The notes under the pieces were generated by a model that was not told the DNA's origin, ran no database searches, and saw only the letters and a program-made list of their open reading frames with translations. 6,119 nt of DNA from a virus (lineage: Duplodnaviria > Heunggongvirae > Uroviricota > Caudoviricetes), in the IMG/VR virus record IMGVR_UViG_2690315994_000022. One strand, written 5' to 3'. Below are positions 1 through 6,119 of the stretch, one piece after another (position 1 is the stretch's first letter; every line of letters starts with the position of its first letter). Made by a program: the position numbers and the translations under genes.

Positions 1-432
1 TATATTTTCAGTGCCGATAAAAATGCGTTTTTCCCTGTGGAGCTTAAAATCGCTTATCAGGAATCCGGCGAATGGCCCGGTGATGGAATCGAAATTGACG
101 ACACTGTTGCCGCCGAATTTATGAAGGAAGCACCAGAAGGAAAATACAGAGGTGTCATCGACGGAATGCCTACATGGATTGATATTCCACCGCCAACTCA
201 TGAGGAACAAATTGCCGCAGCCGAACTGGAAAAGCAGCAATTGATTAATCAGGTCAACGAATACATAAACAGTAAGCAATGGCCTGGTAAAGCGGCGATT
301 GGTCGCCTGAAAGGTGAGGAACTGGCGCAATATAATTTGTGGCTGGATTATCTGGACGCACTGGAGCTGGTCGATACTTCCGGTGCGCCAGATATTGAAT
401 GGCCTACGCCTCCGGCAGTTCAGGCCAGATGA
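1..432 (+). CDS. tail fibre assembly protein (Tfa/U-type), 5'-truncated by the window edge; inverted partner copy (tfa')
   Basis: Frame 1 is open from base 1 to TGA at 430..432 (the supplied ORF starts at GTG 37 but the frame is open upstream). C-terminus LWLDYLDALELVDTSGAPDIEWPTPP matches the C-terminus of the minus-strand Tfa (AVLDYIDAVTATDTSTAPDVIWPELP), the conserved tail of phage tail-fibre assembly chaperones. Convergent with and overlapping the other tfa by 29 bp. Confidence 0.8.
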   Translation, partial: YIFSADKNAFFPVELKIAYQESGEWPGDGIEIDDTVAAEFMKEAPEGKYRGVIDGMPTWIDIPPPTHEEQIAAAELEKQQLINQVNEYINSKQWPGKAAIGRLKGEELAQYNLWLDYLDALELVDTSGAPDIEWPTPPAVQAR

Positions 433-997
433 CGTCCGGCGCTGTGCTGGTATCTGTTGCCGTCACCGCGTCAATATAATCCAGCACAGCGTTAAGTCGG
501 GTGTTTTCTGGCTGCGTCAGCTTCCGCCCGGCCTGTAATTTCAGTTGAATCAGACTGATGGAAGCCATTGCAGCATCAATCAGCGACTGGCGCTGTGCTT
601 CTGCCGCTTCTACTGCGGCGCTATGCGGTGCCTCGGTATCCGTCACCCATTTCTCACCATCCCATTTATCGTATGGCGTTAACGGTGAAAGCGTGACATA
701 ACCGTCTTTGATGGCACCGATATAATCCACTGTAACAGCTGCGCCATTTTCAGTTGAGTAAACGGTCTCATTGCGATGGTCTTCTTCATGGCTCCATCCC
801 TTACCCGTAAATACAGCCACTTTTCCCGGAATGTTTTCGCTCGGGTCAATACCAGTGGAACAGGCGGGCATACTTACGCCAGTATTAATATATTCATCAG
901 ACCAGCCGGTATATTCATACGTTACTGCATTATAATAAAAACAACGCATATCGCCCGGCACTGTAGCCAGCCCATTTTCATCAAAAACAGGTTTCAT
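404..997 (-). CDS. tail fibre assembly protein (Tfa)
   Basis: 197-aa ORF with ATG at 997..995 sharing one base with the tail-fibre stop (TAATG overlap). Same conserved C-terminal motif as tfa'. Sits directly downstream of the tail-fibre gene, as in Mu S-U, P2 H-G and e14 stf-tfa. Confidence 0.85.
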   Translation of the reverse strand: MKPVFDENGLATVPGDMRCFYYNAVTYEYTGWSDEYINTGVSMPACSTGIDPSENIPGKVAVFTGKGWSHEEDHRNETVYSTENGAAVTVDYIGAIKDGYVTLSPLTPYDKWDGEKWVTDTEAPHSAAVEAAEAQRQSLIDAAMASISLIQLKLQAGRKLTQPENTRLNAVLDYIDAVTATDTSTAPDVIWPELPEA

Positions 998-2100
998 TAT
1001 TTAGCCCTCACCAGAAAGTTAAATGCAATATTTCGTGGACGGGTTTCTGTACCTACATTTCCACTAATTTCACCATAACGTTTAACACTACGAGAGCTAA
1101 GAGCTCGTAGTGAGGAAGGCACCTTAAGACCGGGTTCGTCCGTTTTAACTATTCCCCCGTCACCATATGTAGCCAGTATTCCTGGGTTTACTCCTTCCCG
1201 TGCACTTCCTGCGGCAAGCCCGTCCCCCGTCCACAATTCCATATTGTGTGCATGATCCATAATTGTGTGTGATTGCCCTGAAAGTAGGGTACGTCCGACA
1301 TCAATCCCGCGCCCATCATCCCAGATACGAATGAAATCACCGCGTGCGTCAGGTAATGCCAGCGCCGGAAACACTTTCGCCAGCACAGGGTAATCAGTGG
1401 CAGAGAATTTCGCGCCGTTGAACTTCAAAAACACCATACCGGACCAGCTATCGATTACGGTATCTGGCATTGCAGCGGACGGCCAGAAGAACGGAACGCC
1501 AATAGCTGGAGCTCCTTCTCCCAAACCAAGGTTTTCGAGAGCCGTTTTCACCGTGCCATCCGATTTGATATCACCAAACGGATTCTTGCGGCTCAGGTAT
1601 TCAACAGCAAACCCCGATCCCAGCAATTCAACAAANNNNNNNNNNNNNNNNNNNNNNNNNNNNNNNNNNNNNNNNNNNNNNNNNNNNNNNNNNNNNNNNN
1701 NNNNNNNNNNNNNNNNNNNNNNNNNNNNNNNNNNNNNNNNNNNNNNNNNNNNNNNNAAACCAAGGTTTTCGAGAGCCGTTTTCACCGTGCCATCCGATTT
1801 GATATCACCAAACGGATTCTTGCGGCTCAGGTATTCAACAGCAAACCCCGATCCCAGCAATTCAACAAAACCGGGCAGATCACCATTATCAAGCACATCC
1901 CGTTGCGTTTTATCACTTACAAACTGGGCCAGAGCTGCAGCAATAAAGCTGGCCTGCCGAATAACCTTATTGACTTGCGCACTGGAGGCTTTCCCTGCTG
2001 TAAATCCGGATAAAAGCGCGGGCAACGCTTCCCATTCCTCCTGCGATATAACATTGGCATTTCGATCCGTTGCAAACGCTTTAAAGTCATTTTTCGTCAT
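997..2100 (-). CDS. tail fibre protein: constant N-terminal part plus exchangeable tail-collar-type C-terminal part; length inflated by a scaffold gap and a 234-bp duplication
   Basis: Start preferred at ATG 2100..2098 (MTKNDF...), forming an ATGA overlap with the upstream stop and preceded by GGGGAG about 10 nt away; the supplied ORF start at 2118 has its AGGAG too close. The C-terminal part (...[41 protein letters not shown]...) resembles the phage tail-collar motif. A crossover site lies in frame at 1516..1541. The ORF contains 121 N and a duplicated 78-codon block; the real product is probably about 289 aa. Confidence 0.75.
1516..1541. other. 26-bp gix/hix/cix/pix-type recombination crossover site (site 1) inside the tail-fibre ORF
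   Basis: TTCTCCCAAACC-AA-GGTTTTCGAGAG: two imperfect inverted 12-bp half-sites around a 2-bp core, with the AAACC-NN-GGTTT centre typical of Hin/Gin/Cin/Pin sites. Lies at the junction between the N-terminal and collar-type parts of the tail fibre, and a Pin invertase is encoded in the window. Confidence 0.65.
1523..1635. repeat. 113-bp exact direct repeat, copy A (left of the N gap)
   Basis: Compared base by base with 1757..1869: identical. Starts at the AAACC of crossover site 1 and ends at the first N. Confidence 0.95.
1636..1756. other. run of 121 N: scaffold/assembly gap, not biological sequence
   Basis: Uninterrupted n characters; flanked by identical 113-bp sequence on both sides. 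Confidence 0.98.
1757..1869. repeat. 113-bp exact direct repeat, copy B (right of the N gap)
   Basis: Identical to 1523..1635. The post-gap sequence begins inside the crossover site, at its AAACC. Confidence 0.95.
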
Positions 2101-2780
2101 CAGAGTAATACTCCCCATGCTCCTACATCAAAACCACTGATGAATTCGTTATCCATATCAAAACCAAAAAATTTTGAGCCTTCCGATGGGGTTTCCACCG
2201 AAGGTGTTTCAATGCCACCCGCCCATACCCCGGCGGCTTTTACTGTGAGATACCCCTGTTTAATTGCCGCAATTAACTCACGCGATACATCTGAAATATC
2301 AGTATCAGGAAAGACCCAGACCGATATCGTCATGTCCTGGTTATCGACTATCTGCATTCGCAGCCCGGATCCTGCTGTTGCCGCGTCAAGAATTGCCAGA
2401 AGCGAATCATTCCGTCCGTCCCAGTTATTAATCGCAATCTTCGCTTTAAGAATGACACGATAAGTTTCATCGCTGAGATACATGTATCCTGAATCAGGAT
2501 CGTATGGTCCCTGCCATACCCCCTGATCATATCCAAGCCCGTCGGTATCCCAGCTGAAATAGACACCTGAGATAGGCTGGCTGACAACACGGCTACGTCC
2601 GATCCACAATCCAAGAATGTCAAGTTGCACACCAACCGCAGAGTCAATATCAAATGCAGTAATCAGCCCTCTGGTGGCAGCCGCAACATCAATAAGTGGC
2701 CGGGTCATCAGATCAACATGCGCAAGAAATTTAGGTTTGGTGGCGTGGTAGTTCGTGATTAGTTCGGTGTATTTGCTCAT
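2100..2780 (-). CDS. phage tail/baseplate protein, Mu gp48 / YmfQ-like
   Basis: 226-aa ORF between the baseplate-J-like gene and the tail-fibre gene, the position occupied by Mu gp48, e14 YmfQ and P2 gpI. ATGA overlaps at both ends (2780..2777 and 2102..2098). Family assignment is by position and general resemblance, not a search. Confidence 0.6.
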   Translation of the reverse strand: MSKYTELITNYHATKPKFLAHVDLMTRPLIDVAAATRGLITAFDIDSAVGVQLDILGLWIGRSRVVSQPISGVYFSWDTDGLGYDQGVWQGPYDPDSGYMYLSDETYRVILKAKIAINNWDGRNDSLLAILDAATAGSGLRMQIVDNQDMTISVWVFPDTDISDVSRELIAAIKQGYLTVKAAGVWAGGIETPSVETPSEGSKFFGFDMDNEFISGFDVGAWGVLL

Positions 2781-3976
2781 GACTCCACCGTTATAACGAT
2801 ATTTTCCGGGGTACAGGACACAGATTCGTTGTATCTGATATCAATGTTTGATGACGACAAAGCCCCCGGGGATTTCCCAATCGTCAGTTCCTGAATATCG
2901 TAATAGCGTGCATTCCCGCCACTCACCACGCCAAGATTCGCCGGTGAGTAAATGCGACTTAAAAGGACCGAATCACCAATCATCAGACTATTGATATAGT
3001 CGGAAATAGCCTGCTGGATCTGCTGCCCTATCTGTGAGGTATAACCCGTAAAAACTTGTAATTTGATCCGGGCATAAACAGGCACATCACTGGAACGCGA
3101 GAATTTGATTACATGGGGATTGCCGTATTTATCCGGAACCGTAACGGATGTTGTACCGTGAGTGGCTGTCCCCTGGCCTTTATTTCCTCTGATAGCCTGA
3201 GCAATATCCGTCACATCACCGCCATCCACAATTACAGCAACAGAGTGTGGCGGTAACCCGTTACCGTCCTCCGAACCAGTATCGTTTTCATAGAGTTTGT
3301 GGCGGGTTACACCGGTAACATTAGAAACAGCACCATCCAGTGCTTCAAATGGGGTTATTGATGGCAACGCAACACTTTGCGACTGGCGGATACGTAACTC
3401 CGCATCAGTTTCTGCTGGAGTGCCTACAGTAGCTGCAGCAGGATTGGTTACCGAAACCCAGCCACGGGTTGGCGTATTAATTTCAGTGATAGTTCCAGCC
3501 AGCGCCGCCACTGCACCACTGACGGAACATGTTGCGGTCACCATCACTGTACCATCCACGCCGACCACCACTGAAGCAGGCAAACGCCATATCACATTAT
3601 TACTGTCTTTCACGCTGCCATTAATGATGGTTGTTCCGGCAGTTCCTGTAAGAAGCAAATCAACCGTAGAATTCGTCGCGCCTTTACGTGAAATACCATT
3701 TATTTTCACGTTACTGGTCAGTGCAGCCCCATAGCCGGTTGCCGGTGAAAAACAGTTGTAGACAGTTATCGCCATATTATTGGCATCATGAATCGCCAGC
3801 GCCATCAGAGCCACCATCTGGCCGTCTTTGCTGTCCGGTTCGAGGTAGGCATCACTGCCATAAATCTGCTGAAAATAGCTAATCAGGGTGCTGAGTATCG
3901 TCTGATAATCAGGCGCACTGATCCCCTCCGCGGTTACCTTTGCAGATAAACCGAGAGAATCAAGGTTCAGAGCCAT
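2777..3976 (-). CDS. baseplate J-like protein (Mu gp47 / P2 gpJ family)
   Basis: 399-aa ORF; size, composition and position immediately upstream of the gp48-like and tail-fibre genes fit the baseplate J family. GGAGG lies just upstream of ATG 3976. The stop overlaps the next gene's start (ATGA). Confidence 0.8.
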   Translation of the reverse strand: MALNLDSLGLSAKVTAEGISAPDYQTILSTLISYFQQIYGSDAYLEPDSKDGQMVALMALAIHDANNMAITVYNCFSPATGYGAALTSNVKINGISRKGATNSTVDLLLTGTAGTTIINGSVKDSNNVIWRLPASVVVGVDGTVMVTATCSVSGAVAALAGTITEINTPTRGWVSVTNPAAATVGTPAETDAELRIRQSQSVALPSITPFEALDGAVSNVTGVTRHKLYENDTGSEDGNGLPPHSVAVIVDGGDVTDIAQAIRGNKGQGTATHGTTSVTVPDKYGNPHVIKFSRSSDVPVYARIKLQVFTGYTSQIGQQIQQAISDYINSLMIGDSVLLSRIYSPANLGVVSGGNARYYDIQELTIGKSPGALSSSNIDIRYNESVSCTPENIVITVES

Positions 3977-4141
3977 TACGCCTCCGATGTAACAGTCGTT
4001 ATTCCATAAAGAGTGTCGATTTCAGCGGAAAACATGACACGTCGGGTCGTGGTATCCACCGTCGTATTGAAAGAGAGGATTGATTTAACGCCCNAAACCA
4101 ACGTTTATGAAAATGCAGAAATAACGAGCAAATGGCATCAT
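3976..4141 (-). pseudogene. short ORF or 3' gene remnant upstream of J that reads through crossover site 2; frame depends on the ambiguous base at 4094
   Basis: With the n at 4094 omitted, the minus strand reads MMPFARYFCIFINVGLGVKSILSFNTTVDTTTRRVMFSAEIDTLYGITTVTSEA and stops at TAA 3978..3976, sharing one base with the J start (TAATG). With n kept as a real base the frame stops at 4087..4085. No convincing RBS at its 5' end. Confidence 0.3.
4088..4113. other. second gix/pix-type crossover site (site 2), 55 bp upstream of pin; contains an ambiguous base
   Basis: ACGCCCnAAACC-AA-CGTTTATGAAAA has the same AAACC-AA-(C/G)GTTT centre as site 1. If the n is dropped, the left arm AACGCCCAAACC matches site 1's TTCTCCCAAACC at 9 of 12 positions. 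Its position just upstream of the invertase gene is the canonical one for the invertase-proximal site in Gin/Cin/Pin systems. Confidence 0.55.
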
Positions 4142-4154
4142 TCCTGCTTTTGTC

Positions 4155-4160
4155 AGGGAG
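4155..4160 (+). promoter_or_regulatory. Shine-Dalgarno sequence for pin
   Basis: AGGGAG, 7 nt upstream of ATG 4168. Confidence 0.5.
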
Positions 4161-4167
4161 ATCTACC

Positions 4168-4722
4168 ATGCTTATTGGCTATGTACGTGTGTCAACAAAT
4201 GACCAGAACACAGATCTACAACGTAATGCGCTGAACTGTGCAGGATGCGAGCTGATTTTTGAAGACAAGATAAGCGGTACAAAGTCCGAAAGGCCGGGAC
4301 TGAAAAAACTGCTCAGGACATTATCGGCAGGTGATACGCTGGTGGTCTGGAAACTGGACCGACTGGGGCGCAGTATGCGGCATCTTGTCGTGCTGGTGGA
4401 GGAGTTGCGCGAACGAGGCATCAACTTTCGTAGTCTGACGGATTCAATTGATACCAGTACCCCAATGGGGCGCTTTTTCTTTCATGTGATGGGTGCCCTG
4501 GCTGAAATGGAACGTGAACTGATTGTTGAACGAACAAAAGCAGGACTGGAAGCTGCTCGCGCACAGGGACGAATTGGGGGACGTCGTCCCAAACTTACAC
4601 CAGAACAATGGGCGCAGGCCGGGCGATTAATTGCATCAGGCGTTCCTCGCCAGAAGGTGGCGATCATCTATGATGTTGGCGTATCGACTTTGTATAAGAA
4701 GTTTCCGGTCGGAGATAAATGA
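4168..4722 (+). CDS. pin: serine DNA invertase of the Pin/Gin/Hin/Cin (Din) family
   Basis: 184-aa product starting MLIGYVRVSTNDQNTDLQRNAL, with the catalytic-serine motif YVRVSTNDQ, the conserved WKLDRLGRS and GALAEMERELI blocks, and a C-terminal helix-turn-helix (VAIIYDVGVSTLYKK). Close to Gin/PinE as remembered. Start chosen at ATG 4168 rather than the supplied ORF's 4132 because of the RBS and family N-terminus. Confidence 0.95.
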   Translation: MLIGYVRVSTNDQNTDLQRNALNCAGCELIFEDKISGTKSERPGLKKLLRTLSAGDTLVVWKLDRLGRSMRHLVVLVEELRERGINFRSLTDSIDTSTPMGRFFFHVMGALAEMERELIVERTKAGLEAARAQGRIGGRRPKLTPEQWAQAGRLIASGVPRQKVAIIYDVGVSTLYKKFPVGDK

Positions 4723-5027
4723 AACCGTAGCACGTCGTATGCAAGAACGTGCCACGGCTGGCTGATGGACGTTCGATAGCGCGAGTTTGAATGAAAATCA
4801 GCCGGAGATGATTTTACATAATTGCTACGGAATTATTCAATACAGGAATTGCTTGTGTATGCATGGATTGACCTGAAATATTCCCGAAAATTTCTCTAAA
4901 AAACTCGAAAAAAATGGTAACTAATTGAATGTATTAATATGTAATAGTACGTGTTAGAGATTAAAAGATGAGCATAAATTTATTTAACACATTAATTCTA
5001 AAAGATTTTGTTGTTTGTTGACGAAAA

Positions 5028-5052
5028 CAGGAATCGTGTTCGGTCTCTTTTT
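5028..5052 (+). ncRNA. sdsR: probable 3'-terminal fragment of sRNA SdsR (RyeB), i.e. candidate prophage attachment-site core
   Basis: CAGGAATCGTGTTCGGTCTCTTTTT matches, with one mismatch, what I recall as the SdsR terminator 3' half (..CAGGAAUCGUAUUCGGUCUCUUUUU). The upstream arm of the terminator stem is not complementary here, so only the 3' part is present. From memory, not searched. Confidence 0.35.
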
Positions 5053-5171
5053 ATCTGTTAAAAGCCAGAAGCATTTCCTTCGCTGACTTTATAGTCAACC
5101 ATAACACACACTCTACTGTCTGAGTCCAGCGTTTTTTAACATTCTTGTTAAGATTATGTGATCTTTAGCGC

Positions 5172-5177
5172 GGGAGG
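5172..5177 (+). promoter_or_regulatory. Shine-Dalgarno sequence for pphA
   Basis: GGGAGG, 9 nt upstream of ATG 5187. Confidence 0.5.
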
Positions 5178-5186
5178 AAAATATTG

Positions 5187-5843
5187 ATGAAACAGCCTGC
5201 GCCCGTTTATCAGAGAATTGCGGGTCATCAATGGCGACATATCTGGCTTTCTGGCGATATACACGGTTGTCTTGAGCAGTTGCGCCGCAAATTATGGCAT
5301 TGTCGTTTTGATCCGTGGCGAGATTTACTTATCTCAGTGGGAGACGTTATCGATCGTGGGCCGCAAAGTTTACGTTGTCTGCAGTTACTGGAACAACATT
5401 GGGTTCGTGCGGTAAGAGGCAATCATGAACAGATGGCGATGGATGCGCTGGCATCCCAGCAGATGTCTTTGTGGTTGATGAATGGCGGCGACTGGTTTAT
5501 TGCGCTGGCAGATAATCAACAGAAACAAGCGAAAACGGCGCTGGAAAAATGTCAGCATTTGCCCTTTATTCTTGAAGTACACAGCCGCACCGGCAAACAT
5601 GTTATTGCTCATGCCGATTATCCAGATGATGTTTATGAATGGCAAAAGGACGTTGATTTGCATCAGGTCTTGTGGAGCCGCTCGCGATTAAGTGAACGCC
5701 AAAAAGGGCAGGGAATTACAGGTGCTGATCATTTCTGGTTTGGTCATACACCGTTGCGCCATCGCGTGGATATTGGCAACCTGCATTATATTGATACCGG
5801 CGCTGTCTTTGGGGGCGAACTGACTTTCGTGCAATTGCAATAA
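5187..5843 (+). CDS. pphA: serine/threonine protein phosphatase 1 (PPP-family metallophosphatase)
   Basis: 218-aa product MKQPAPVYQRIAGHQWRHIWLSGDIHGC... with the metallophosphatase motifs GDIHG, GDVIDRG and GNHE; recognised as E. coli PphA/PrpA. Start at ATG 5187 (the supplied ORF begins at TTG 5184). Confidence 0.9.
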   Translation: MKQPAPVYQRIAGHQWRHIWLSGDIHGCLEQLRRKLWHCRFDPWRDLLISVGDVIDRGPQSLRCLQLLEQHWVRAVRGNHEQMAMDALASQQMSLWLMNGGDWFIALADNQQKQAKTALEKCQHLPFILEVHSRTGKHVIAHADYPDDVYEWQKDVDLHQVLWSRSRLSERQKGQGITGADHFWFGHTPLRHRVDIGNLHYIDTGAVFGGELTFVQLQ

Positions 5844-6035
5844 TTAAAAATCACCATACTCCTGTGCTGGTCGCCAGAAACCATCTATAAAATCCTCAAT
5901 CGGAAAACAACCGCCATGACGGATCCGTTGATCGCTCATAGAATAAAGACACTGCTGTTCCGTGTTGTAGACATCCACAACAATATCTTCACAACCGCCA
6001 TCCAGGTAGCAAACAAAAAGTACCAGCGCGAACAT
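5844..6035 (-). CDS. yebW: small conserved protein, YebW-like (63 aa); the ORF stays open to the window edge so the start is uncertain
   Basis: Minus-strand ORF ending at TAA 5846..5844, directly abutting the pphA stop. An internal ATG at 6035..6033 gives a 63-aa product (MFALVLFVCYLDGGCEDIVVDV...EYGDF), the size I recall for YebW beside pphA in E. coli K-12. Symbol is from memory. Confidence 0.45.
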   Translation of the reverse strand: MFALVLFVCYLDGGCEDIVVDVYNTEQQCLYSMSDQRIRHGGCFPIEDFIDGFWRPAQEYGDF

Positions 6036-6119
6036 TTCATCCCCGAAGTGTGGTGCCGTACCGTTAAGTTTAGGAGAGATTTTACAACGGGGGAATAACC
6101 AGGACAAATAACCCGCCAT

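What the first reader, a model, noticed from the sequence alone, without database searches (positions are those of the whole stretch)
4168..4722. Pin-family invertase associated with the tail-fibre module
The catalytic and DNA-binding motifs are intact and there is no frameshift, so the enzyme is probably functional, consistent with the assembly signatures of ongoing inversion. In this family a Fis-dependent recombinational enhancer lies inside the 5' part of the invertase coding sequence, but Fis sites are too degenerate to place by eye.
Basis: partly seen in the sequence, partly recalled or inferred. Interest (0 to 1): 0.5.

Follow-up and report, generated by a model that had tools for sequence, protein, structure and literature searches.

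The report
PinE-type tail-fibre DNA invertase gene
This is an intact copy of the well-known Pin/Gin/Cin/Hin type of DNA invertase that flips a prophage tail-fibre cassette, with its Fis-dependent enhancer inside the first 90 bases of the gene; it is ordinary and already annotated as pinE in many E. coli genomes.

Summary
Bases 4168-4722 (+) are an uninterrupted 184-codon ORF for a small serine recombinase. It is 97% identical to E. coli K-12 PinE, 78% to Mu Gin and 82-83% to P1/P7 Cin. The catalytic, Fis-contact and DNA-binding residues are intact.

I placed the enhancer at 4190-4204 and 4238-4252, with centres 48 bp apart, inside the span that corresponds to the enhancer annotated in phage P7. 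Across 74 related invertase genes, synonymous codon variation collapses at exactly these two cores.

The gene's link to the tail-fibre genes in this window is not reliable. A single 'n' at 4094 joins two blocks in an order found in none of 5,426 complete E. coli genomes. Both internal contig starts (1757 and 4095) fall at the same position of a crossover site. This fits mixed inversion isomers, but repeated prophage copies would give the same breaks.

Two assemblies that encode the identical protein at the same locus differ by a precise 1,827-bp inversion between the sites, so the system flips in nature.

Nothing here is new in kind. The one side lead is a conserved TGGCA...GC motif 35 nt upstream of the start codon. 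The same 18-mer in K-12 is a weak published sigma-54 ChIP-seq peak.

The parts
4168..4722 (+). pin coding sequence: 184 aa plus stop. Serine-recombinase catalytic domain (residues 3-135) and C-terminal helix-turn-helix (138-180).
4190..4204 (.). Proximal Fis core of the recombinational enhancer (TGTCAACAAATGACC; pin nt 23-37). Its centre at 4197 lies about 96 bp from the crossover centre at 4100/4101.
   Evidence: The same 15-mer position matches the classic Fis consensus in pinE, gin and cin. It lies inside the span that corresponds to the enhancer annotated in the P7 record, cin nt 19-86. Synonymous diversity at codons 9-12 is 0.04-0.11, against medians of 0.70 and 0.44.
4238..4252 (.). Distal Fis core of the enhancer (GTGCAGGATGCGAGC; pin nt 71-85). 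Its centre at 4245 is 48 bp from the proximal centre.
   Evidence: Synonymous diversity at codons 25-27 is 0.12-0.22.
4095..4113 (+). Pin-proximal crossover site, truncated (AAACC AA CGTTTATGAAAA). The outer 7 bp of the left half-site (TTCTCCC) are missing. They are replaced by 'n' at 4094 and unrelated sequence from the sheath-initiator gene.
   Evidence: The full site TTCTCCCAAACCAACGTTTATGAAAA is present in complete genomes.
1516..1541 (+). Complete 26-bp crossover site inside the tail-fibre gene (TTCTCCCAAACC AA GGTTTTCGAGAG). It marks the boundary between the constant N-terminal part (higher coordinates) and the variable C-terminal part.
   Evidence: It contains the e14 P-segment repeat CCTTCTCCCAAACCAA reported in PMC12529663.
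1636..1756 (.). 121-N scaffold gap, flanked by an exact 113-bp direct duplication (1523-1635 = 1757-1869). The left edge of the duplication is the AAACC of the crossover site.
4094..4094 (.). Single 'n' that joins block 1757-4093 to block 4095-6119. Block 1757-4093 carries tail-fibre constant part, DUF2612 wedge, baseplate J and the 3' end of the sheath-initiator gene, all on the - strand. Block 4095-6119 carries pin, pphA and yebW.
   Evidence: Homology to every complete genome and long contig splits exactly here, and the two blocks map in opposite relative orientation.
4132..4149 (+). Conserved promoter-like element ATGGCATCATTCCTGCTT. TGGCA is at -35 from the start codon. It can be read as a sigma-54-type -24/-12 site or as an extended -10.
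   Evidence: The identical 18-mer upstream of K-12 pinE is a low-stringency sigma-54 ChIP-seq peak (PMC4591121 S2 Table).
4156..4160 (+). Shine-Dalgarno-like GGGAG, 8 nt before the ATG at 4168.
   Evidence: Positions -12 to -8 are purine-rich across homologues.

Best explanation
Bases 4168-4722 encode a functional PinE-type, Fis/enhancer-dependent DNA invertase. It belongs to a contractile-tailed prophage inserted in the sdsR/ryeA locus next to pphA.

Mechanism (inferred from the Hin and Gin systems):
1. Pin dimers bind two 26-bp crossover sites. One lies about 60 bp upstream of pin. The other lies inside the tail-fibre gene.
2. Two Fis dimers bind the enhancer cores at 4190-4204 and 4238-4252, inside pin itself.
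3. Looping on supercoiled DNA assembles an invertasome.
4. Ser9 of each subunit cuts at the central AA.
5. One subunit pair rotates 180 degrees, and religation inverts the roughly 1.8-kb cassette. This swaps the C-terminal tail-fibre segment and its assembly chaperone fused to the constant N-terminal part.

Shown here: the intact gene and residues, the sites, the position of the enhancer and the selection acting on it, and natural inversion isomers in strains that carry the identical protein.

Inferred: Fis dependence, activity in this particular strain, and the biological output (host-range switching or, as recently claimed for e14, phage defence).
For: - Domains and residues.
- Identity: 97% to PinE, 78% to Gin, 82-83% to Cin.
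- Invertase-specific Fis and enhancer contact residues are kept. Pin K46, K47 and R50 correspond to Hin K47, R48 and K51. Pin Q150, R153 and L154 correspond to Hin Q151, R154 and L155. The equivalence goes through the ungapped alignment to Gin plus PMC3798978.
- Positions where Fis-independent mutants map are wild type: H106 and M114.
- The two Fis-consensus cores are 48 bp apart, at the same codons in pin, gin and cin, and inside the span corresponding to the enhancer annotated in P7.
- The seven most synonymously constrained codons of 115 tested are codons 9-12 and 25-27, which are exactly those cores.
- The crossover centre is about 96 bp from the proximal Fis centre. The hin spacing is about 100 bp.
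- The exact protein occurs in 572 blocks of public assemblies. All ten long contigs shown have the order baseplate J - wedge - tail fibre - tfa - inverted tfa' and fibre end - pin. Eight of these ten lie at pphA. The other two (L092, L093) lie at other chromosomal sites.
- L095 and L096 have flanks that are at least 99.9% identical and differ by a precise 1,827-bp inversion bounded by the sites.
Against: - No inversion isomers can be read from the window itself.
- Only one complete crossover site is present. The pin-proximal site is cut at a scaffold join.
- As assembled, the two sites are in direct rather than inverted orientation.
- Fis binding was not measured. The Fis consensus alone has no statistical power.
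- No clear sigma-70 promoter was found upstream of the gene.
Confidence: 0.9

Rival explanations
1. The gene is intact, but the assembly breaks at 1636-1756 and 4094 come from repeats, not ongoing inversion. The source genome would carry two or more prophages that share the same invertible cassette or the same J-I-fibre block. Contigs would then end at the boundaries of shared sequence, which happen to be the crossover sites.
For: - The cassette in window 1-1534 is 99.3-99.5% identical to cassettes in unrelated prophages at other loci. Examples are DEC5B next to yfhH and a P2-like prophage in SF-173.
- Genomes with a match hold a median of 2 and up to 9 places.
- Block 1757-4093 also ends at 4093, inside a gene with no crossover site. 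That is best explained by a repeat boundary.
Against: - Both site-associated contig starts lie at exactly the same position of the site, 5 bp 5' of the central AA.
- 24 of 80 invertase loci from other species also have a contig end within about 205 bp upstream of the gene.
- About 14 of those contig ends lie inside or within a few bases of the site, and four start at exactly AAACC.
- This pattern is expected if mixed isomers are common in sequenced cultures.
Confidence: 0.4
2. The order drawn in the window is real. A rearrangement has placed the 3' end of the sheath-initiator gene, baseplate J, the wedge gene and the tail-fibre constant part directly upstream of pin. The two crossover sites are then direct repeats, and the system is broken or would delete rather than invert.
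For: The window as given has both sites on the + strand. An inversion between the pin-proximal site and a point in the sheath-initiator gene would produce exactly this order (my reasoning).
Against: - No place in any of 5,426 complete E. coli genomes covers 80% or more of a 621-bp query across the junction. The listed matches stop at the 'n'.
- In each of the nine long contigs encoding the identical protein that carry this block, it maps in the opposite relative orientation to the pin block.
- The break lies 5-6 bp from the central AA where serine recombinases cut. The reference gene at that point (GCCCCGCGTTTCG) has no crossover-site half.
- The junction base is an 'n'.
Confidence: 0.04
3. 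The invertase is a silent relic. It would be intact by recent descent but not expressed, or not active, in its host. Inversions seen between strains would be old events or would be catalysed in trans by other Pin-type enzymes.
For: - No strong sigma-70 promoter match lies upstream.
- PinQ and PinR are reported to dominate over PinE in flipping the e14 segment, so trans action is real (PMC12529663).
Against: - The L095/L096 pair differs by the inversion while the flanks are 99.9-99.98% identical, so the flip is recent.
- Synonymous constraint on the enhancer and the conserved upstream element argue for continued selection on function across the family.
- A pinE deletion locks the e14 segment.
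Confidence: 0.06

Closest known systems
PinE of the E. coli K-12 cryptic prophage e14 (P-segment invertase)
   Same: - 97% amino-acid identity over all 184 residues.
- Identical crossover-site core (CCTTCTCCCAAACCAA) and an identical upstream 18-mer ATGGCATCATTCCTGCTT.
- Only 5 differences across the first 180 nt of the gene that I aligned, 2 of them inside the enhancer span.
- Same layout: the gene is transcribed away from the invertible tail-fibre/tfa cassette.
   Different: - It sits in a different, apparently complete-tailed prophage (DUF3383/DUF3277 tail, Wedge1, baseplate J) inserted at sdsR/pphA rather than at icd.
- The neighbour downstream is pphA, not mcrA.
- The variable cassettes differ.
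Gin of phage Mu (G-segment invertase; structures 3uj3 and 4m6f)
   Same: - 78% identity with no gaps over residues 1-181.
- Same gene-to-site arrangement: the site is about 60-67 bp upstream of the start codon.
- Fis cores at the same codons.
- TGGCA-N8-GC also at -35.
   Different: Gin has a 9-residue longer C-terminus. The crossover site half-sequences differ (TAAACCGAGGTTTTGGATAA).
Cin of phages P1 and P7 (C-segment invertase)
   Same: 82-83% identity. The enhancer annotated at cin nt 19-86 in the P7 record covers the same two cores.
   Different: cin is transcribed towards its invertible segment, and cixL overlaps the 3' end of cin. The upstream region is unrelated and lacks the TGGCA element.
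Hin of Salmonella (flagellar phase variation)
   Same: Same enzyme family and mechanism. There are two Fis sites 47-48 bp apart, about 100 bp from the nearer crossover site. The Fis-contact residues are conserved (PMC3798978).
   Different: hin lies inside its invertible segment and controls a promoter, not a tail-fibre gene. I did not retrieve a verified hin sequence, so the hin comparison rests on the paper and on my memory of the sequence.
PinQ/PinR of the Qin and Rac cryptic prophages
   Same: They are orphan Pin-type invertases that act in trans on the e14 segment. This shows that such enzymes and sites are interchangeable, and that inversion can create adsorption-blocking chimeric fibre proteins (PMC12529663).
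   Different: Their sequences were not compared here. The window's gene has its own adjacent cassette in all full-length relatives.

Membership tests
Fis/enhancer-dependent DNA invertases (Hin/Gin/Cin/Pin subfamily of small serine recombinases) | About 185-190 aa, with an N-terminal serine-recombinase catalytic domain that carries the nucleophilic Ser and the Arg/Asp catalytic set, and a C-terminal helix-turn-helix | tested here: met
   Pfam Resolvase plus HTH_7. Y5, R7, S9, R42, D64, R65 and R68 align to the gamma-delta catalytic residues.
Fis/enhancer-dependent DNA invertases (Hin/Gin/Cin/Pin subfamily of small serine recombinases) | Close sequence relationship to the founding members, far above that to resolvases | tested here: met
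   PinE 97%, Cin 82-83%, Gin 78%. Gin scores E 4e-94 against gamma-delta resolvase at 2e-31.
Fis/enhancer-dependent DNA invertases (Hin/Gin/Cin/Pin subfamily of small serine recombinases) | Invertase-specific residues that contact Fis and the enhancer (Hin K47/R48/K51 and Q151/R154/L155) | tested here: met
   Pin has K46, K47 and R50 (all basic), and Q150, R153 and L154 (invariant in Pin, Gin and Cin). The residue roles come from PMC3798978. Hin itself was not aligned.
Fis/enhancer-dependent DNA invertases (Hin/Gin/Cin/Pin subfamily of small serine recombinases) | Recombinational enhancer with two Fis sites about 48 bp apart, located in cis (in the 5' part of the gene for this family) | tested here: met
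   Cores at 4190-4204 and 4238-4252, 48 bp apart. They are positionally conserved in gin and cin and lie inside the span corresponding to the enhancer annotated in P7. Synonymous-site constraint is confined to these cores. Fis binding itself was not measured.
Fis/enhancer-dependent DNA invertases (Hin/Gin/Cin/Pin subfamily of small serine recombinases) | Two 26-bp crossover sites in inverted orientation flanking the invertible segment, each made of two imperfectly symmetric 12-bp half-sites around a central dinucleotide | tested here: inconclusive
   One complete site (1516-1541) and one truncated site (4095-4113) are present. In the window they are in direct orientation, because of the join at 4094. 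In the two relatives examined in detail (DEC5A and the L095/L096 pair) the sites are complete and inverted. All ten long contigs that encode the identical protein have the canonical gene order.
Fis/enhancer-dependent DNA invertases (Hin/Gin/Cin/Pin subfamily of small serine recombinases) | Catalyses inversion of the flanked segment | not testable with these tools
   The only support is indirect. L095 and L096 differ by a precise 1,827-bp inversion with breakpoints in the sites. Contig ends cluster at the site in many draft genomes.
Fis/enhancer-dependent DNA invertases (Hin/Gin/Cin/Pin subfamily of small serine recombinases) | Dependence on host Fis and on negative supercoiling | not testable with these tools
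   Positions where Fis-independent mutants map (H106, M114) are wild type. That predicts dependence but does not show it.
Sigma-54-dependent promoters (considered for the element at 4132-4149) | GG at -24 and GC at -12 with fixed spacing (TGGCAC-N5-TTGCW), bound by sigma-54 holoenzyme | tested here: inconclusive
   TGGCAT-N5-CTGCT fits the spacing. It scores 11.4 bits, about the 25th percentile of 98 ChIP-derived motifs. The identical K-12 18-mer is a low-stringency ChIP-seq peak with FAT 3. Against this, only 24 of 38 homologues keep GC at the -12 position, and the implied start site would fall on or after the Shine-Dalgarno sequence.
Sigma-54-dependent promoters (considered for the element at 4132-4149) | Requirement for an enhancer-binding activator ATPase, and loss of transcription in an rpoN mutant | not testable with these tools
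   No activator site or transcript data are available.

The most novel reading that the evidence does not exclude
Expression of Pin/Gin-type invertases may be set by a conserved sigma-54-type element placed exactly 35 nt upstream of the start codon (TGGCA-N8-GC; window 4132-4149). It could work as an activator-dependent promoter. Alternatively, stably bound but inactive sigma-54 holoenzyme could hold invertase synthesis down. Either way, the rate of tail-fibre (or phage-defence) switching would be coupled to a cellular signal rather than being purely stochastic.
Probability: 0.2. Interest if true: 0.55.

Novelty: already known. Interest (0 to 1): 0.15.

Why it matters
The gene itself is a textbook element and changes nothing. 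Four practical points follow from this work.

1. This scaffold should not be trusted across 1636-1756 or 4094. Invertible segments systematically break short-read assemblies at their crossover sites.
2. The synonymous-constraint footprint places the two Fis cores to within a few bases without any experiment. The method could be reused for other coding-embedded cis elements.
3. Pin-type inversions in prophages have recently been claimed to create adsorption-blocking chimeric fibre proteins (PMC12529663). Intact pin loci such as this one are therefore candidates for switchable phage defence as well as host-range switching.
4. The conserved upstream TGGCA element is an inexpensive experimental lead on how these invertases are regulated.

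Tried and rejected
1. **Fis motif scanning as evidence.** The classic consensus KNNYRNNWNNYRNNM gives 54 hits against 52.9 expected in the window. The two-site pattern with 48-bp spacing gives 2 hits against 0.47 expected, and one of them is in pphA. A rule-based score built from PMC4784862 did not single out the true cores either. I rejected this as stand-alone evidence.

2. **A Shine-Dalgarno-sequestering hairpin between the TGGCA element and the start codon.** RNAalifold found no consensus structure. My hand-drawn 4-bp helix is paired in 57% of cells, no better than shuffles or slid controls. Rejected.

3. **The junction at 4094 as a Pin-mediated event at a quasi-site.** The break is 5-6 bp from the central dinucleotide, and the reference sheath-initiator gene has no half-site there. 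Pin exchange can only swap left halves, so it cannot join two 'right-half' arms. Rejected.

4. **Rfam at gathering thresholds.** No hits. Only sub-threshold SdsR/RyeA hits appear at the prophage edge.

5. **Sigma-70 promoter scan.** Nothing lies between the crossover site and the start codon.

6. **Johnson's review of DNA invertases.** Two attempts to retrieve it failed. The published Fis footprints for hin, gin and cin are therefore cited only through PMC3798978, the P7 record and my memory.

7. **Rules that NCBI uses to name this protein.** NCBIfam has no invertase-specific model that passes its cut-off.

Full report
**1. What is there**

The window holds one long open frame on the + strand at 4132-4722. 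The in-frame ATG at 4168 is preceded by GGGAG at 4156-4160 and gives 184 codons plus a stop. These are exactly the finding's coordinates, and the 555-bp gene is what RefSeq annotates as pinE in complete E. coli genomes. Pfam finds a resolvase catalytic domain (E 1.5e-51) and the resolvase helix-turn-helix (E 3.5e-14).

The closest solved structure is Mu Gin, at E 4e-94 with no gaps over residues 1-181. Gamma-delta resolvase follows at 2e-31. The resolvase alignment puts Y5, R7, S9, R42, D64, R65 and R68 opposite the known catalytic set. Identity is 97% to K-12 PinE, 99% to the gene at the same locus in strain DEC5A, 78% to Gin and 82-83% to P1/P7 Cin.

**2. Family-specific features**

McLean et al. 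(PMC3798978) show that Hin K47/R48/K51 and Q151/R154/L155 contact the enhancer DNA and Fis, and are conserved only among invertases. Hin numbering is one ahead of Gin and Pin. The window's protein has K46, K47 and R50 (all basic) and Q150, R153 and L154, which are invariant across Pin, Gin and Cin. H106 and M114 are the positions where Fis-independent mutants map; the crystallised Gin carries M114V. Both are wild type here.

**3. The enhancer**

The P7 GenBank record annotates a putative enhancer at cin nt 19-86. The first 100 nt of pin, pinE, gin and cin align without gaps. In all of them the classic degenerate Fis consensus matches at nt 23-37 and nt 71-85, with centres 48 bp apart. In the window these are 4190-4204 (TGTCAACAAATGACC) and 4238-4252 (GTGCAGGATGCGAGC).

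The consensus itself carries no weight. It hits 54 times in the window against 52.9 expected, and the two-site pattern hits twice against 0.47 expected. I therefore tested for selection on the DNA. I took 74 distinct invertase genes (80 loci from one genome per species, plus phage and K-12 copies) and measured, codon by codon, how often two sequences that share the amino acid use different codons.

| Codon set | Synonymous diversity |
|---|---|
| Median, four- and six-fold codons | 0.70 |
| Median, two-fold codons | 0.44 |
| Codons 9-12 | 0.04-0.11 |
| Codons 25-27 | 0.12-0.22 |

Codons 9-12 and 25-27 are the seven lowest of the 115 codons tested. They coincide with the two cores. Codons 13-24 between them are ordinary, which agrees with the modest sequence requirement between the Fis sites of hin.

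The crossover centre (4100/4101) lies about 96 bp from the proximal Fis centre (4197). In hin the distance is about 100 bp.

**4. Crossover sites and the state of the assembly**

A complete 26-bp site, TTCTCCCAAACC AA GGTTTTCGAGAG, lies at 1516-1541 inside the tail-fibre gene. It contains the e14 repeat CCTTCTCCCAAACCAA reported by Kirigo et al. (PMC12529663). The pin-proximal site is present only from AAACC onward (4095-4113), preceded by a single 'n'.

A 121-N gap (1636-1756) is flanked by an exact 113-bp duplication, and the second copy also begins at AAACC. So two internal block starts fall at the same position of two crossover sites, 5 bp 5' of the central AA.

Homology to complete genomes splits exactly at 4093/4095. 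No place in any of 5,426 complete genomes covers 80% or more of a 621-bp query across the junction. In each of the nine long contigs encoding the identical protein that carry block 1757-4093, that block maps in the opposite relative orientation to block 4095-6119. The true order is sheath initiator - baseplate J - wedge - fibre constant part - site - [fibre end, tfa, inverted tfa', inverted fibre end'] - site - pin - pphA.

The junction as drawn cannot be a Pin product. The break is not at the central dinucleotide, the interrupted gene has no half-site there, and Pin exchange only swaps left halves. I conclude that it is a scaffold error.

Contig ends at this site are common. In 24 of the 80 loci from other species, a contig ends within about 205 bp upstream of the invertase gene. 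About 14 of those ends lie in or next to the site, and four start at exactly AAACC. This fits mixed isomers in sequenced cultures. The same cassette also occurs at 99.3-99.5% identity in unrelated prophages, so repeats could break this assembly at the same points. Block 1757-4093 also ends at 4093 inside a gene, which looks like a repeat boundary. The window alone cannot decide between these explanations.

**5. Evidence that the system flips**

The exact 184-aa protein is on record in 572 blocks of public assemblies. Two of the long contigs, L095 and L096, are 99.94% and 99.98% identical and collinear on the two flanks. They differ by a 1,827-bp segment that is an exact reverse complement (99.8%). 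The breakpoints are inside the two sites, and the variable half-sites are exchanged as expected. Among the ten places shown, both fibre types are found fused to the constant part.

**6. Expression signals (side observation)**

No sigma-70 consensus match lies between the site and the start codon. The pattern in 24 distinct upstream sequences from more than ten genera is as follows.

| Position relative to the start codon | Base(s) | Conservation |
|---|---|---|
| -35 to -31 | TGGCA | invariant |
| -27 | T | invariant |
| -21 | C | 96% |
| -19 to -17 | TTT | invariant |

The intervening bases vary. The Mu gin upstream region carries the same TGGCA at -35 and GC at -22/-21.

The window's 18-mer ATGGCATCATTCCTGCTT (4132-4149) is identical to the motif listed for K-12 pinE in the low-stringency sigma-54 ChIP-seq table of Bonocora et al. 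[quoted passage not shown] A matrix built from 98 other motifs of that table scores it 11.4 bits, about the 25th percentile, and second best in the window.

Two things argue against a sigma-54 promoter. Only 24 of 38 homologues keep GC at the -12 position. The implied start site would also fall on the Shine-Dalgarno sequence. An extended -10 reading (TGn-CATnAT) explains T-35, G-34, A-31, T-30 and T-27, but not the invariant G-33 and C-32. This remains unresolved. A hairpin that would sequester the Shine-Dalgarno sequence has no covariation support.

**7. Context**

Homology to K-12 begins at window 5022, inside the last 30 nt or so of sdsR. The prophage is therefore inserted in the sdsR/ryeA locus upstream of pphA. 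Forty-one of 5,426 complete genomes have pin and pphA contiguous in this way.

**8. Verdict**

This is an intact, almost certainly functional PinE-type Fis-dependent invertase. It is already annotated in many genomes and works as the textbook Hin/Gin model describes. The enhancer is at 4190-4252. The adjacency to the tail-fibre genes as drawn is a scaffold error. The assembly breaks are compatible with ongoing inversion but do not prove it. Novelty: already known. Interest: low.

Noticed in passing
window 4132-4149: A conserved TGGCA-N8-GC-TTT element sits exactly 35 nt upstream of the invertase start codon in 24 distinct sequences from more than ten genera. The Mu gin upstream region also has TGGCA at -35 and GC at -22/-21. 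The identical 18-mer in K-12 is a low-stringency sigma-54 ChIP-seq peak and an EcoCyc-predicted promoter. Whether it is a sigma-54 site or an extended -10 is unresolved.
   Followed up: partly
window 1636-1756 with 1523-1635 = 1757-1869, and 4094: There are two scaffold joins: 121 Ns between exact 113-bp overlapping ends, and a single n. Both following blocks begin at the AAACC of a crossover site. Block 1757-4093 is placed in an order and orientation found in no complete genome.
   Followed up: yes
window 3976-4093 (- strand): Only the last 39 codons of the sheath-initiator (PF10934) gene upstream of baseplate J are present. The block ends mid-gene at 4093 with no crossover site there, which suggests a repeat boundary in the source genome.
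   Followed up: partly
window 5022-5052: The prophage/chromosome boundary lies here. Only the terminal 30 nt or so of the small RNA gene sdsR (overlapping ryeA) remain next to pphA, so the prophage is integrated in the sdsR/ryeA locus. Rfam gives only sub-threshold SdsR and RyeA hits.
   Followed up: partly
window 4177-4179 and 4273-4275 (pin codons 4 and 36): These two codons have lower-than-usual synonymous diversity (0.22 and 0.24) and lie outside the two Fis cores. This could be a third constrained element or chance.
   Followed up: no
loci L015-L079 (genome contigs): In 24 of 80 invertase loci from other species, a contig ends within about 205 bp upstream of the invertase gene, often inside the crossover site. 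This is a general assembly signature of invertible segments.
   Followed up: partly
L095:3113-4939 versus L096:3113-4939: Two public assemblies have the identical Pin protein at the pphA locus and flanks that are at least 99.9% identical. They differ only by a precise inversion of the 1,827-bp cassette.
   Followed up: yes
window 4723-5021: An AT-rich stretch of about 300 bp without an ORF lies between the pin stop codon and the prophage end. It contains several weak promoter-like matches on the - strand. There is also a sub-threshold partial hit to the Shigella sRNA CssrB at 4723-4756.
   Followed up: no
window 3469-3486 (+ strand, antisense to baseplate J): TTGGCGTATTAATTTCAG is the highest-scoring match to the sigma-54 matrix in the window (13.3 bits). 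It is probably chance.
   Followed up: no
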